Origin: the human T2T-CHM13v2.0 reference genome, Homo sapiens
NCBI RefSeq assembly: GCF_009914755.1
Contig: NC_060925.1
Reading direction: 5' to 3' (one strand)
DNA length: 64,000 nucleotides
Positions within the stretch are counted from its first letter, which is position 1. Each line of letters opens with the position of its first letter. Below the pieces are notes generated by a model. That model was not told where the DNA came from, ran no database searches, and saw nothing but the letters and a program-made list of their open reading frames with translations. Shown here piece by piece: positions 15,063 through 43,457 of this stretch. The position numbers and the translations under genes were made by a program.

Positions 15063-16778
15063 AAGAAAATTCAGAGGCCAACAACTGTGCTGAGAAGAAG
15101 AAACAAAGGTAGAACAAGATTCTGACTAACTTACAATCTTGTGACTGTAAGAGCGTCTAGTTGCCCTGAGAGGTGTATGTGGATTCCCAGGAGGGTGGGA
15201 GGCCCAGGGCTTGTTAGTAAGCACCGCCTAGCACCACCTTCCACCTGCACCTCTCCTTACCTACTGCTCTGGCTGGGCTCAGCAGCATCATTCTCACAGT
15301 ATGAGCCAGAGGGACCCTGGGCCTCAGGCATTTCCACTTGTTCCAGACCCATGAAAAGTCATTGTGATTCCAGGGTAACAATCACCCTGATGACCTCTTT
15401 CTAGTCTCGGGCTCTGGGATCTTCTGCCTTCTCATTGCTTCTCTGAACTCCATCAAAACAGAAGAGGATGCCATAATTCTTTTACAACTTGACAAAAACA
15501 CCTTTATAAGAATGCATTGGTTCCCCCAGACAGTTTTAAGCCTCTTATCTTTAATTGTGGAATTAAGGATTTTATCTCCCATGAAAGAAATTTCATGCAT
15601 CAACTAAGCAATGTGCAGGGCAGAGAGACTCCCAGGTCTCCTAAGCATCAGGCTAAGACTTGGTGGGCCCAGAGGGACAAAGGTCAGAGTGGAAGACATG
15701 AGTCAGAAAGAACTGTGAGAGTTCCGTTCTCTTTCTCACCTGGCTGTCCTCAGATGAATGTACCTGGCCTGCTCCCTCAGACATCCTTTTCTGCAATGGT
15801 TGCAGGGGGAAAAGTCCTGGAATTGCTGGTGTCTTGCACTGTGGCACATGGGTCTGGAGTCAGAGGTATCTGAGCCCTCTACCCTTCCCTTGGTCTTCTG
15901 GGATTCTTTCTTACCATCTTGAGACCCTGGCACTACCCATTCCAGTCCTTCTGTCTCTTTCTCTCTCTTCCAGCACTAACACGTTTGTACCTGTTCACCA
16001 ATGCCCTCTACATAGCTGCCACTTTCTTTCTAGAAAGGTTTTCTACTCCCTTAACGCACAGACTTCTCTGTCTTGGGTTCATTATCAAAGGGAGACCTGG
16101 GAATATGAGAGGAGAGAAGGTGCTGGAAACTTTCTATTGCTCAACAACATCCCTCCAAATGTAGTGGAGCCTTAGATGATCACAGAGGGAGCAGCAGTCA
16201 TAGATGGGGGCACGAGGTAGAGATGGCAGAGGTGTGGGAACCTGAGCAATGACATTTATCACTTTCCCTGCAAAGGTGAGTGTGTGCATACAAGAGTGTG
16301 CGTCTGTGTGTAAGAGCATGTGTTGAGGGGAAACTGACATATTTGACAATAATTAGTATTACCAAGAAACTTTAAAAGTTAGAAAAAGAACTTAATCTTT
16401 GGCTACCTAAAAGTAATACTAATTATAGGCTTCATGCAAATTAAGTCCAATTATCATGCAACACAATAATATGTCTATCATTATAATATGTCAAGTTAAC
16501 TTTCTTGTAAATTTTCCATAACAATTTTGAACTTTTTTTTTGGACATTAATATTAATTTATTTTTTTATTATTATTATACTTTAAGTTTTAGGATACATG
16601 TGCACAATGTGCAGGTTTGTTACATATGCATACATGTGCCATGTTGGTGTGCTACACCCATTAGCTCGTCATTTAGCATTAGGTATATCTCCTGATGCTA
16701 TCCCTCCCCACTGCTCCCACCCCACAACACTCCCCGGTGTGTGATGTTCCCCTTCCTGTGTCCATGTGTTCTCATTGT

Positions 16779-19700
16779 TCAATTCCCACCTATGAGTGAG
16801 AACATGCGGTGTTTGGTTTTTTGTCCTTGCGATAGTTTGCTGAGAATTATGGTTTCCAGCTTCATCCATGTCCCTACAAAAGACATGAACTCATCATTTT
16901 TTATGGCTGCATAGTAATCTATGGTGTATATGTGCCACATTTTCTTAATCCAGTCTATCGTTGCTGGACATTTGGGTTGGTTCCAAGTCTTTGCTATTGT
17001 GAATAGTGCCCCAATAAACATACATGTGCATGTGTCTTTATAGCAGCATGATTTATAATCCTTTGGGTATATACACCCAGTAATGGGATGGCTGGGTCAA
17101 ATGGTATTTCTAGTTCTAGATCCCTGAAGAATCGCCACACTGACTTCCACAATACCTGAACTAGTTTACAGTCCCACCAACAGTGTAAAAGTGTTCCTAT
17201 TTCTCCACATCCTCTCCAGCACCTGTGGTTTCCTGACTTTTTAATGATTGCCATTCTAACTGGTGTGAGATGGTATCTCACTGTGGTTTTGATTTGCATT
17301 TCTCTGATAGCCAGTGATGATGAACATTTTTTCATGTGTCTTTTGACTGCATAAATGTCTTCTTTTGAGAAGTGTCTGTTCATATCCTTCGCCCACTTTT
17401 TGATGGGGTTGTTTGTTTTTTTCTTGTAAATTTGTTTGAGTTCATTGTAGATTCTGGATATTAACCCTTTGTCAGATGAGTAGGTTGCGAAAATTTTCTC
17501 CCATTCTGTAGGTTGCCTGTTCACTCTGATGGTGGTTTCTTTTGCTGTGCAGAAGCTCTTTAGTTTAATAAGATCCCATTTGTCAATTGTGACTTTTGTT
17601 GCCATTGCTTTTGGTGTTTTAGACATGAAGTCCTTGCCCATGCCTATGTCCTGAATGGTATTGCCTAGGTTTTCTTCTAGGGTTTTTATGGTTTTAGGCC
17701 TAACATTTAAGTCTTTAATCCATCTGGAATTAATTTTTGTATAAGGTGTAAGGAAGGGATCCAGTTTCAGCTTTCTACATATGGCTAGCCAGTTGTCCCA
17801 GCACCAATTATTAAATAGGGAATCCCTTCCCCATTGCTTGTTTTTGTCAGGTTCATCAAAGATCAGATAGTTGTAGATATGCGGCATTATTTCTGAGGGC
17901 TCTGTTCTGTTCCATTGGTCTATATCTCTGTTTTGGTACCAGTACCATGCTGTTTTGTTTACTGTAGCCTTGTAGTATAGTTTGAAGTCAGGTAGCGTGA
18001 TGCCTCCAGCTTTGTTCTTTAGGCTTAGGATTGACATGGCAATGTGGGCTCTTTTTTGGTTCCATATGAACTTTAAAGTAGTTTTTTCCAATTCTGTGAA
18101 GAAAGTCATTGGTAGCTTGATGGGGACGGCATTGAATCTATAAATTACCTTGGGCTGTGTGGCCATTTTCAGGATATTGATTCTTCCTATCCATGAGCAT
18201 GGAATGTTCTTCCATTTGTTTGTATCCTCTTTTATTTCCTTGAGCAGTGGTTTGTAGTTCTCCTTGAAGAGGTCCTTCACATCCCTTGTAAGTTGGATTC
18301 CTAGGTATTTTATTCTCTTTGAAGCAATTGTGAATGGGAGTTCACTCATGATTTGGCTCTCTGTTTGTCTGTTATTGGTGTATAAGAATGCTTGTGATTT
18401 TTGCACATTGATTTTGTATCCTGAGACTTTGCTGAATTTGCTTATCACCTTAAGGAGATTTTGGGCTGAGACAATGGGGTTTTCTAGATATACAATCATG
18501 TCATCTGCAAACAGGGACAATTTGACTTCCTCTTTTCCTAATGGAATACCCTTTATTTCCTTCTCCTGCCTGATTGCCCTGGCCAGAACTTCCAACACTA
18601 TGTTGAATAGGAGTGGTAAGAGAGGGCATCCCTGTGTTGTGCCAGTTTTCAAAAGGAATGCTTCCAGTTTTTGTCCATTCAGTATGATATAGGCTGTGGG
18701 TTTGTCATTGATAGCTGTAATTATTTTGAGATACGTCCCATCAAAACCTAATTTATTGAGAGATTTTAGCATGAAGGGTTGTTGAATTTTGTTAAAGGCC
18801 TTTTCTGCATCTATTGAGATAATCATGTGGTTTTTGTCTTTGGTTCTGTTTATATGCTGGATTATATTTATTGATTTTCATATGTTGAACCAGCCTTGCA
18901 TCCCAGGGATGAAGCCCACTTGATCATGGTGGATAAGCTTTTTGATGTGCTGCTGGATTTGCTTTGCCAGTATTTTATTGAGGATTTTTGCATCAGTGTT
19001 CATCAAGGATATTGGTCTAAAATTCTCTTTTTTTCTGTTGTGTCTCTGCCAGGCTTTGGTATCAGAATGATGCTGGCCTCATAAAATGAGTTAGGGAGGA
19101 TTCCCTCTTTTTCTATTGATTGGAATAGTTTCAGAAGGAATGGTACCAGCTCCTCCTTGTACCTCTGGTAGAATTCAGCTGTGAATCCATCTAGTCCTGG
19201 ACTTTTTTTGGTTGGTAAGCTATTAATTATTGCCTCAATTTCAGAGCCCGTTATTGGTCTATTCGGAGATTCAACTTCTTCCTGGTTTAGTCTTGGGAGA
19301 GTGTATGTGTCGAGGAATTTGTCCATTTCTTCTAGATTTTCTCGTTTATTTGCATAGAAGTGTTTTTACTATTCTCTGATGGTAGTTTGTATTTCTGTGG
19401 GATGGGTGGTGATATTCCCTTTGTCATTTGTTATTGCATCTATTTGAGTCTTCTCTCCTTTCTTCTTTATTAGTCTTGCTAGCAGTCTATCAATTTTGTT
19501 GATCTTTTCAAAAAACCAGCTCCTGGATTCATTGATTTTTTGAAGGGTTTTTTGTGTCTCTAATTCCTTCAGTTCTGCTCTGGTCTTAGTTATTTCTTCC
19601 CTTCTGCTAGCTTTTGAATGTGTTTGCTCTCGCTTCTCTAGTTCTTTTAATTGTGATGTTAGGGTGTCAATTTTAGATTTCTCTTGCTTTCTCTTGTGGG

Positions 19701-42300: not shown

Positions 42301-43205
42301 ATCCTAGAATAAAACCTAGGCAATACCATTCAGGACATAGGCATGGGCAAGGACTTCATGTCTAAAACACCAAAAGCAATGGCAACAAAAGCCAAAATTG
42401 ACTAATGGGATCTCATTAAACTAAAAAGCTCCTGCACAGCAAAATAAACCGTCATCAGAGTGAACAGGCCACCTACAGAATGGGAGAAAATTTTTGCTAT
42501 CTACTTATCTGACAAAGGGCTAATATCCACAATCTACAAAGAACTCAAACAAATTTACAAGAAAAAAAAAAAACAATCCCATCAACAAGTGGGCGAAGGA
42601 TATGAACAGACACTTCTCAAAAGAAGACATTTATGCAGTCAAAAGACACATGAAAAAATGCTCATCATCACTGGCCATCAGAGAAATGCAAATCAAAACC
42701 ACAATGAGATATCATCTCACACCAGTTAGAATGGCGATCATTCAAAAGTCAGGAAACAACAGGTGCTGGAGAGGATGTGGAGAAATAGGAACACTTTTAC
42801 ACTGTTGGTGGGACTATAAACTAGTTCAACTATTGTGGAAGTCAGTGTGGCGATTCCTCAGGGATCTAGAACTAGAAATACCATTTGACCCAGCCATCCC
42901 ATTACTGGGTATATACCCAAAGGAATATAAATCATGCTACTATGAAGACACATGCACACGTATGTTTATTGCAGCACTACTCACAATAGCAAAGACTTGG
43001 AACCAACCCAAATGTCCAACAATGATAGACTGGATTAAGAAAATATGGCACATATACAGCATGGAATACTATGCAGCCATAAAAAATGATGAGTTCTTGT
43101 CCTTTGTAGGGACATGGATGAAGCTGGAAACCATCATTCTCAAGCAAACTATCACAAGGACAAAAAACCAAACACTGCATGTTCTCACTAAGAGGTGGGA
43201 ATTGA
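39376..43205 (+). pseudogene. L1 ORF2, start codon TTG, multiple stops and frameshifts
   Basis: Fragments 39376-39606, 39549-40508 (EN), 41065-42312 (RT FADD) and 42602-43363 (cysteine-rich C-terminus). Confidence 0.95.
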
Positions 43206-43457
43206 ACAATGAGAACACTTGGACACAGGAAGGGGAACATCACACACTGGGGCCTGTTGTGGTGTGGGGGGAAGCGGGAGGGATAGCATTAGGAGATATA
43301 CCTAATGTAAATGCCAAGTTAATGGGTGCAGCACACCAACATGTCACATGGATACATATGTAACAAACCTGCACATTGTGCACATGTACCCTAGAACTTA
43401 AAGTATAATAAATATATATATGTAAAATAAATAAATAAATAAAAGAATGAGGCAAAA

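What the first reader, a model, noticed from the sequence alone, without database searches (positions are those of the whole stretch)
16560..43442. Two inverted full-length L1s of different subfamilies share apparently private ORF2 mutations: probable ectopic gene conversion
Seen in sequence: the left L1 (-) has L1PA4-type ends (GGGGTGGAGCC; ATGCTAAATG/CCTAAAACTT) and the right L1 (+) has L1PA5-type ends (GGCGGTTCC; ATGTAAATG/CCTAGAACTT). Yet both carry the same base at about 9 ORF2 sites where, from memory, L1PA consensuses differ. Left/right positions: 20539/39431 (ctaaCtgct), 20520/39450 (gacaAagact), 20441/39529 (acaGatagg), 19934/40052 (NWLSDH vs NC/YLSDH), 18543/41441 (KGIPL vs KGIQL), 18172/41812 (INILK vs INIVK), 18156/41828 (QPK vs LPK), 17346/42639 (YAVKR vs YAAKR), 17154/42831 (Tattgtgg). 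Most are transversions, so parallel CpG decay does not explain them. Inference: the neighbours have exchanged sequence repeatedly over ~3.5 kb, as the arms of inversion-mediating inverted repeats do. The third L1 also has the Q variant (60721), by chance or by wider exchange.
Basis: partly seen in the sequence, partly recalled or inferred. Interest (0 to 1): 0.8.

Follow-up and report, generated by a model that had tools for sequence, protein, structure and literature searches.

The report
Neighbouring inverted L1s exchanged ORF2 sequence
Two old L1 retrotransposons that landed separately, head to head and 14.6 kb apart, share a set of ORF2 mutations seen together in no other L1 copy of this genome, most likely because they copied short stretches into each other long ago.

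Summary
L (16560-22696, -) and R (37276-43442, +) are full-length L1s with different target-site duplications, so they inserted separately. All nine reported sites carry the same base in both, and 0-1 of 34-40 unlinked panel copies carry it.

Three multi-allele signatures occur genome-wide only in L and R. One has 2 copies against 2,644 of the ordinary form. None of 86 other single-signature carriers has a second signature.

The two elements sit on different rungs of the L1PA ladder in the 5' 1.5 kb, where an {R,L} clade is rejected (p-AU 1e-9). In ORF2 they are sisters (98/99).

L's ORF2 is a mosaic of at least five R-like patches between sites that keep the subfamily difference. No window is near-identical, so the exchange is old. 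Both TSD pairs are intact, so there was no net inversion.

Best reading: ancient, repeated, short-tract ectopic gene conversion. This is a known kind of event, cleanly documented here. The names L1PA4 and L1PA5 could not be checked. Two further inverted neighbour pairs elsewhere show the same excess.

The parts
16560..22696 (-). L: full-length L1, the younger type in its 5' 2.1 kb; A-rich tail at the low-coordinate end
16551..16559 (.). L target-site duplication, 3' copy (TATTAATTT), abutting the A-rich tail
22697..22705 (.). L target-site duplication, 5' copy (TATTAATTT), abutting the L1 5' end
22706..37260 (.). Spacer between the two 5' ends (head-to-head arrangement), about 14.6 kb
37261..37275 (.). 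R target-site duplication, 5' copy (AAGAATGAGGCAAAA)
37276..43442 (+). R: full-length L1 of an older rung of the ladder (old state at 15 of 18 G5>G4 sites and 21 of 98 G6>G5 sites)
43443..43457 (.). R target-site duplication, 3' copy (AAGAATGAGGCAAAA)
39426..39764 (+). Patch 1 in R (R pos 2152-2490); shared rare alleles at 2157, 2176, 2255 plus shared older-type states at 2173, 2424, 2490
20222..20544 (-). Patch 1 in L
40052..40052 (+). Patch 2 in R (R pos 2778, T>G); partner in L at 19934; flanked by sites that keep the subfamily difference (2682, 2973)
40301..40809 (+). Patch 3 in R (R pos 3027-3535); alleles at 3027, 3030, 3032, 3344, 3347, 3535
19177..19684 (-). Patch 3 in L
41436..42450 (+). 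Patch 4 in R (R pos 4162-5176); alleles at 4167, 4520, 4538, 4554, 4855, 5176
17534..18548 (-). Patch 4 in L
42639..42831 (+). Patch 5 in R (R pos 5365-5557); alleles at 5365, 5371, 5557
17154..17346 (-). Patch 5 in L

Best explanation
R inserted first, and L, from a younger rung of the L1PA lineage, inserted later. L landed 14.6 kb away, in the opposite orientation and head to head. While their ORF2 regions were still nearly identical, the two resident copies acted like the arms of an accidental inverted repeat. Breaks in one copy were repaired from the other without crossing over.

Each event copied a short stretch, tens to hundreds of bases long. That carried the donor's private and lineage-specific bases into the partner. 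At least five patches between R positions 2152 and 5557 record this.

Most evidence points to transfer from R into L, because L carries older-type states there. A few sites suggest transfer the other way.

The 5' 2.1 kb, where the two subfamilies differed several-fold more, shows no exchange. The exchange stopped early, and both copies have since decayed independently by about 3% each.

Shown: independent insertion, allele sharing private to the pair, conflict between the 5' and ORF2 trees, and the mosaic in L. Inferred: the repair mechanism, the number and direction of events, the timing, and identity as the limiting factor.
For: Independent insertions. The TSDs differ: TATTAATTT for L and AAGAATGAGGCAAAA for R. 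Only the L1 bodies align.

Private sharing.
- All 9 reader sites are shared, with 0-1 of 34-40 panel carriers each.
- L-R has 10 exclusive alleles in ORF2, against 0-3 for 624 of 630 pairs.
- Exact genome-wide counts: 38-mer with 2157C+2176A, 2 copies; 27-mer with 3027A/3030G/3032A, 2 copies against 2,644 of the ordinary form; 24-mer with 3344G/3347A, 2 copies.
- Allowing one mismatch adds 17, 4 and 137 copies. Every one seen lacks one of the alleles; 98 of the 137 were listed.
- None of the 86 other single-signature carriers has two signatures.

Incongruence. In the 5' 1-1500, three strongly supported branches separate R from L, and an {R,L} clade is rejected (delta lnL 81.9, p-AU 1.1e-9). 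In ORF2 2100-5600, R+L are sisters at 98/99 on a branch of 0.0063.

Mosaic.
- At sites where R differs from the unanimous G4 copies, L sides with R at 6/113 (positions 1-2140), 24/102 (2141-5600) and 1/18 (5601-6163); Fisher p=1.3e-4. Three control G4 copies side with R at 10/112, 9/111 and 5/107 in ORF2.
- At strict G4-versus-G5 sites, L is G4-type at 13/16 in the 5' part but G5/R-type at 6/6 in ORF2. Controls keep their own type at 6/6 to 6/8.
- Sites that keep R old and L young (2555, 2682, 2973, 4150, 5226) interrupt the shared patches.
- L-R mismatch is 90/2037 inside patches against 96/1551 outside (p=0.019). L is more diverged from its own kin inside patches, with ratios of 1.04-1.35.

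No crossover. Both TSD pairs are intact.

Two further inverted neighbour pairs show the same excess.
Against: - No outgroup genome was available, so neither the timing nor the pre-conversion states are observed directly.
- The reference groups are small: 3 'G4' and 5 'G5' copies. The panel is biased towards hits to R.
- Forcing L away from R in ORF2 costs delta lnL 25.3, but p-AU is only 0.058.
- No window is near-identical. The best is 97.8%, where an unlinked copy reaches 97.5%.
- The inside/outside mismatch ratio of 0.71 is matched by one control pair (R-L006, 0.69).
- At least five separate patches need several events, or patchy repair of one long heteroduplex.
- Several single alleles recur elsewhere: 4167C in 31 other copies, 2255G in 23, 5365T/5371G in 27. 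Only the combination is private.
Confidence: 0.72

Rival explanations
1. Rare source lineage with recombinant progenitors. A small side lineage of L1 carried these ORF2 alleles. R is an early member. L descends from a chimaera of that lineage with the main younger lineage, made by template switching or recombination between source elements. The two offspring then landed 14.6 kb apart by chance.
For: R+L form a clade in ORF2. Some shared states (3027A, 3535T, 4520A, 4554A) are older-type and so look lineage-like rather than private. One unlinked copy, L041, has the 4520/4538/4554 trio. Three copies have 3027A+3030G. From memory, not from a call: mosaic L1 lineages are described in rodents.
Against: No third copy carries two signatures, out of 86 other carriers. 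No copy with both or all alleles of a signature was found even with one mismatch allowed. My estimate, not a tool result: a third member with a full ORF2 would be missed by all three searches only about 5% of the time. L's ORF2 is a mosaic of at least five patches, not the one or two junctions expected from template switching. Two of two members landing within 15 kb in a 3.1-Gb genome has a chance of about 1e-5.
Confidence: 0.15
2. Coupled insertion. Both copies came from one source RNA pool in a single germline episode and integrated near each other, so they share the source's alleles.
For: The separate TSDs are compatible with this. It could fit the same-subfamily pair L043/L044, whose 17 shared alleles span positions 473-5491.
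Against: In the 5' 1.5 kb, R and L differ at 11 G5>G4 ladder sites and are separated by three strongly supported branches, so they did not come from one source. The sharing is patchy rather than full-length. No such local coupling of separate L1 insertions is known to me; this rests on memory.
Confidence: 0.04
3. Inverted segmental duplication of one L1, or chance parallel mutation or editing.
For: The orientation is inverted and overall identity is 92%.
Against: The flanks do not align and each copy has its own TSD. 7 of the 10 exclusive alleles are transversions of mixed types. Each allele has a genome frequency below about 1%, for example 33 against 7,451, so joint chance sharing is negligible. 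A true duplicated pair in the panel, L030/L038, looks different: same truncation point and 22 exclusive alleles in 3 kb.
Confidence: 0.02

Closest known systems
Non-allelic gene conversion between neighbouring Alu elements (Aleshin & Zhi 2010, seen only as cited in passages of PMC6598467 and PMC8230782)
   Same: Independently inserted retrotransposon copies that lie close together share non-diagnostic mutations. The rate depends on distance and identity. Mosaics of subfamily-diagnostic sites result.
   Different: Those passages give a range of about 10 kb for 300-bp Alus. Here the partners are 6-kb L1s whose homologous ORF2 positions lie 19-26 kb apart. The two further pairs are 38 and 55 kb apart. 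PMC2950799 itself is not held, so I could not check orientation effects or whether L1 was treated.
Arm-to-arm gene conversion in palindromes and large inverted repeats of the human X and Y (recalled, no call)
   Same: Inverted copies separated by a spacer of tens of kb exchange sequence without crossing over.
   Different: Those arms arise by duplication and stay above 99% identical through continuing conversion. Here the arms are two separate insertions of different subfamilies, exchange was partial and ceased, and identity is now 92-94%.
Reported L1 gene conversion (Burton et al. [quoted passage not shown]
   Same: A resident L1 is altered by sequence from another L1.
   Different: As I recall, those cases replace an element with sequence from an unidentified and usually younger donor. 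Here both partners are identified and adjacent, and the transferred alleles are private to the pair.
L1-L1 non-allelic homologous recombination causing inversions or deletions (recalled)
   Same: The substrate is the same: inverted L1 pairs within tens of kb.
   Different: A crossover would leave each element with one TSD from each insertion. Both TSD pairs are intact here, so the outcome was non-crossover, or an even number of crossovers.

Membership tests
Ectopic (non-allelic) gene conversion between dispersed repeats | The partners are paralogues of independent origin, not one duplicated segment | tested here: met
   Different TSDs abut each element, and the flanks do not align.
Ectopic (non-allelic) gene conversion between dispersed repeats | Derived alleles are shared by the two partners and absent from other family members | tested here: met
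   0-1 of 34-40 panel carriers per site. Three signatures have 2 genome copies each, against 2,644 for one ordinary form. No other copy has two signatures.
Ectopic (non-allelic) gene conversion between dispersed repeats | Phylogenetic incongruence along the sequence | tested here: met
   In the 5' 1.5 kb an {R,L} clade is rejected at p-AU 1.1e-9. In ORF2, R+L are sisters at 98/99. L sides with R at 5% of informative sites in the 5' part and 24% in ORF2.
Ectopic (non-allelic) gene conversion between dispersed repeats | Tract-like blocks with lower divergence inside than outside | tested here: inconclusive
   At least five patches are bounded by retained diagnostic differences. Mismatch is 4.4% inside and 6.2% outside, p=0.019, but one control pair shows a similar ratio.
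Ectopic (non-allelic) gene conversion between dispersed repeats | Change of state at an orthologous locus between species | not testable with these tools
   No primate genomes are held.
L1 subfamily or source-lineage variant | The alleles are shared as a set by many unlinked copies | tested here: not met
Inverted segmental duplication / palindrome | Homology continues into the flanks, with shared insertion landmarks | tested here: not met
   The alignment stops at the L1 ends and the TSDs differ.
NAHR inversion between inverted L1s | Hybrid elements with mismatched TSDs | tested here: not met
   Each element keeps its own matching TSD pair.
   No Dfam or Repbase consensus was available. Shown only: both keep the segment that is deleted in L1PA3-L1HS, and R is older than L in the 5' part.

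The most novel reading that the evidence does not exclude
Long L1 copies that happen to land in inverted orientation within about 15-100 kb of each other regularly pass through a phase of concerted evolution after insertion.

The exchange is gated by local identity. Here ORF2 exchanged, while the 5' 2.1 kb, which differed several-fold more, did not.

Support beyond this locus is limited:
- Among the 33 genomic carriers of the rare 4167C allele, 7 sit in three local clusters.
- Two more examined pairs (38 and 55 kb apart, both independently inserted) share 17 and 6 exclusive alleles.
- All seven neighbour pairs within 100 kb that I saw in the hit lists were inverted. I compiled that tally by eye, and four of the seven were not examined.

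If general, this biases L1 ages and subfamily calls, and it marks a class of dispersed, accidental inverted repeats that recombine.
Probability: 0.35. Interest if true: 0.65.

Novelty: new member of a known kind. Interest (0 to 1): 0.5.

Why it matters
Dating L1 copies and assigning them to subfamilies assumes that each copy decays independently after insertion. This pair shows roughly a quarter of the informative ORF2 sites of one element overwritten by its neighbour. That inflates its apparent age and blurs its subfamily.

The locus also gives a natural read-out of how sequence identity limits ectopic repair. Exchange is confined to the 3.4 kb where the two subfamilies were nearly identical. 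It is absent from the 5' 2.1 kb.

The pair also shows that inverted L1s tens of kb apart have interacted physically in the germline without inverting the spacer. That bears on where inversion-prone sites lie.

Tried and rejected
- Subfamily consensus: rejected by the genome counts.
- Shared minor lineage. I looked for any unlinked copy with two or more signatures among 86 carriers and found none. The one extra exact hit of the 4538/4554 signature (L041, a 2.2-kb fragment on C7) shares only 4520/4538/4554 of the 9 sites checked.
- Inverted duplication: rejected by the TSDs and flanks.
- Recent conversion: rejected. No 400-bp window exceeds 97.8% identity, and in most windows L ranks mid-field among R's relatives.
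- Wider exchange with the third L1 of the window: its A at 4554 and A at 4520 are older-type states that other old copies share.
- L042, a full-length L1 61 kb right of R, shares 4167C and 4554A but none of the other alleles. It has only 2-3 exclusive alleles with either partner, which is background level. This is left open.
- The AU test forcing L away from R in ORF2 was only marginal (p=0.058).
- A larger panel of L's own nearest relatives could not be fetched, nor could a fourth neighbour pair.
- Aleshin & Zhi 2010 and Khan et al. 2006 are not held. Ages in million years and subfamily names are therefore not given.
- Five literature searches found no paper on conversion between neighbouring L1s. 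These searches cover open-access full text only, so this is not proof of absence.
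Full report
WHAT IS THERE

A self-comparison of the window pairs 37275-43437 (+) with 22700-16551 (-) at 92.06% identity over 6184 columns. Nothing outside the L1 bodies aligns.

R is flanked by a 15-bp direct repeat, AAGAATGAGGCAAAA, at 37261-37275 and 43443-43457. 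L is flanked by TATTAATTT at 16551-16559 and 22697-22705. Each repeat abuts the 5' end and the A-rich tail of its element.

The two are therefore separate retrotranspositions. They are full length, head to head, with 14.6 kb between their 5' ends.

THE OBSERVATION

All nine position pairs carry the same base in L (reverse complement) and R.

I aligned L, R and the third L1 of the window with 40 unlinked copies from the same genome. These were the first 40 of the 76 distinct places returned by searches with R and with L.

At the nine sites the L/R base is carried by 0/34, 0/34, 0/36, 0/36, 0/40, 1/40, 1/40, 1/40 and 0/40 panel copies. More such sites exist at R positions 3030, 3032, 3344, 3347 and 4855. 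There are also older-type states at 3027, 3535 and 4520.

IS IT MORE THAN CHANCE?

Among the 630 pairs of 36 copies complete in ORF2, L-R shares 10 alleles that no other copy has, 7 of them transversions. The distribution of exclusive alleles over pairs was:
- 0 alleles: 483 pairs
- 1 allele: 101 pairs
- 2 alleles: 29 pairs
- 3 alleles: 11 pairs
- 4 alleles: 2 pairs
- 5 alleles: 1 pair
- 7 alleles: 1 pair
- 10 alleles: 1 pair (L-R)
- 23 alleles: 1 pair (L022-L023)

L022 and L023 are two copies of an older subfamily that is barely sampled. That pair shows what an unsampled subfamily looks like, so I tested that possibility across the whole genome.

GENOME-WIDE COUNTS

Pattern counts in the 3.1-Gb assembly are whole-genome counts (the tool says so).

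Signatures found only in L and R:
- The 38-mer with 2157C and 2176A: 2 copies. Allowing one mismatch adds 17 copies. Eleven of these have only 2176A and six have only 2157C.
- The 27-mer with 3027A/3030G/3032A: 2 copies, against 2,644 copies of the ordinary form. One mismatch adds 4 copies, each lacking one of the three alleles.
- The 24-mer with 3344G/3347A: 2 copies. One mismatch adds 137 copies. All 98 that were listed differ at one of the two allele positions; 39 were not listed.

Signatures that recur at the level expected for single recurrent mutations:
- 4167C: 33 copies against 7,451
- 2778G: 6 copies
- 2255G: 25 copies
- 5365T/5371G: 29 copies
- 4538C/4554A: 3 copies

Across these lists, none of the 86 other carriers lies in an element that carries a second signature. 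The one extra exact hit of the 4538/4554 signature (L041) shares 4520/4538/4554 but not 4167, 4855, 5176, 5365 or 5557. The set of alleles is therefore private to L and R.

DIFFERENT ORIGIN, SHARED ORF2

The panel forms the usual ladder-like L1PA tree. Copies lacking R positions of about 764-894 correspond to the 129-bp deletion that a passage of PMC9252281 assigns to L1PA3-L1HS. L and R both keep that segment.

In the 5' 1-1500, R branches below L009 and L002. L sits with L018/L029/L040, which I call G4. Three strongly supported branches lie between R and L, and a joint {R,L} clade is rejected (delta lnL 81.9, p-AU 1.1e-9).

In ORF2 (2100-5600), R and L are sisters at 98/99 on a branch of 0.0063, with terminal branches of 0.031 and 0.028. 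Forcing L to the younger side without R costs delta lnL 25.3, but p-AU is only 0.058.

Site by site:
- At 18 clean G5>G4 ladder sites, R is old at 15 and L is young at 15. Eleven of the twelve sites with R old and L young lie at positions 130-1392. Both copies are old at 576, 2490 and 5371.
- At strict G4-versus-G5 sites, L is G4-type at 13/16 in positions 1-2140 but G5/R-type at 6/6 in 2141-5600. Three G4 controls keep their own type at 6/6, 6/7 and 6/8.
- Where R differs from the unanimous G4 copies, L sides with R at 6/113, 24/102 and 1/18 sites in the three regions (Fisher p=1.3e-4). G4 controls do so at 10/112, 9/111 and 5/107 in ORF2.

This conflict between site sets cannot be placed on one tree, so recombination of some kind occurred.

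SHAPE AND AGE OF THE EXCHANGE

The shared alleles fall into at least five patches, at R positions 2152-2490, 2778, 3027-3535, 4162-5176 and 5365-5557. Sites that keep the expected difference, R old and L young, separate them: 2555, 2682, 2973, 4150, 5226, and 3704 by a looser criterion.

L-R mismatch is 90/2037 (4.4%) inside patches and 96/1551 (6.2%) outside (p=0.019). L is more diverged from its own kin inside patches (ratios 1.04-1.35). One control pair (R-L006, 0.69) has a ratio as low as L-R (0.71), so this test is only suggestive.

Sliding windows agree. R is L's closest relative in the windows starting at 3001, 3201, 4201 and 4401. It ranks mid-field or low in the gaps. No window exceeds 97.8% identity, so there has been no recent exchange.

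Direction. Older-type states in L (2490, 3027, 3535, 4520, 4554, 5371) indicate transfer from R to L. Younger-type states in R (350, 508, 1908, 5903, and 5176C shared with L018/L029) may reflect transfer the other way, or R being an intermediate form.

Both TSD pairs are intact, so there was no net crossover and no inversion (inference).

My estimate from the diagnostic sites is that the two types differed by about 1.5% in the 5' 2.1 kb and about 0.4% in ORF2 when L arrived. That would explain why exchange is confined to ORF2. This is inference.

RIVALS

- A rare source lineage with a chimaeric progenitor would give the ORF2 clade. It also needs at least five junctions, no surviving third member, and a chance landing within 15 kb.
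- A coupled insertion from one source is excluded by the 5' difference.
- Duplication is excluded by the TSDs and flanks.
- Chance or editing is excluded by the allele frequencies and the mixed transversions.

BEYOND THIS LOCUS

This part was only partly followed up. Among the 33 carriers of 4167C, three local clusters appear.

- L/R plus L042. L042 is a full-length L1 61 kb right of R. It shares only 4167C and 4554A.
- L043/L044 on C1 at 92.43/92.47 Mb. They are inverted, 38 kb apart and full length. L044 has its own 16-bp TSD, and the 3' flanks are unrelated. They share 17 exclusive alleles across positions 473-5491, and their 59-mer signature is private genome-wide.
- L045/L046 on C4 at 123.78/123.83 Mb. 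They are inverted, 55 kb apart, and truncated at different points. Their 6 exclusive alleles all lie in 3445-4133, with none in 4168-6130. Among 1035 pairs, only the duplicated pair L030/L038 shares more (22).

By my own estimate, about 0.02-0.03 such neighbour pairs are expected by chance.

I compiled by eye a tally of neighbour pairs within 100 kb in the hit lists. The seven pairs were L/R, the two pairs above, C11:85.40 Mb, C14:28.35/28.39 Mb and C2:30.76/30.86 Mb, and C7:144.93/145.03 Mb. All seven were inverted. Four of them were not examined and could be duplications.

COMPARISON WITH WHAT IS KNOWN

Non-allelic conversion between neighbouring Alus, stronger within about 10 kb and dependent on identity, is described in passages of PMC6598467 and PMC8230782, which cite Aleshin & Zhi 2010. 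The original paper is not held.

L1 gene conversion has been proposed before. I saw only the title of Burton et al. 1991, in a reference list.

Five searches found no paper on exchange between neighbouring L1s. These cover open-access full text only.

This is a new, well-resolved instance of a known process. The possible generality and the orientation bias are the only parts that might be new.

Noticed in passing
L042 = G000:C1:177114181-177120323 (+), 61 kb right of R, outside the window: A full-length L1 of a younger type shares the rare 4167C and the older-type 4554A with L and R, but none of the other shared alleles. Its exclusive sharing with either partner is at background level (2-3 sites). 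This could be a short third-party tract or chance.
   Followed up: partly
L043/L044 = G000:C1:92434100-92440700 and 92474300-92480900: A second inverted pair of full-length L1s, 38 kb apart. L044 has its own 16-bp TSD and the 3' flanks are unrelated. They share 17 exclusive alleles (positions 473-5491), and their 59-mer signature is found nowhere else in the genome. L043's 5' flank was not fetched.
   Followed up: partly
L045/L046 = G000:C4:123777250-123783900 and 123834250-123840900: A third inverted pair, 55 kb apart, truncated at different points (about 3175 and about 2350). Its 6 exclusive shared alleles all lie within R positions 3445-4133, plus 4167C, with none in the remaining 2 kb. The pattern looks like a single tract.
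   Followed up: partly
Hit lists (C11:85.40 Mb; C7:144.93/145.03 Mb; C2:96.29/96.55 Mb; C14:28.35/28.39 Mb; C2:30.76/30.86 Mb): Further pairs of nearby L1 copies carry the same rare allele, and every pair is in inverted orientation.
   Followed up: no
window 59042-62193 (+): The third L1 is 5'-truncated at about R position 2861 and 87.8% identical to R, so it is older. It has the older-type A at 4520 and 4554 and the ordinary base at 4167, 4538, 5365 and 5557.
   Followed up: yes
L030 (C14:13.81 Mb) and L038 (C2:131.6 Mb): Two panel copies have the same 5' truncation point (R position 3319) and 22 exclusive shared alleles in 3 kb. They look like paralogues from a segmental duplication and served as a useful positive control for duplication.
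   Followed up: partly
window 36257-36559 versus 15070-14767; window 63610-63774: A 300-bp inverted repeat pair (82.7% identity) lies just outside the two L1s, one copy in the spacer. A short L1 fragment lies at the right edge of the window. Neither was classified.
   Followed up: no
G000:C1:176991765-176994694 (+), about 15 kb left of the window: Another 3-kb L1 3' fragment, about 32 kb from L, is among L's best hits (95%). It did not appear in any of the signature searches.
   Followed up: no
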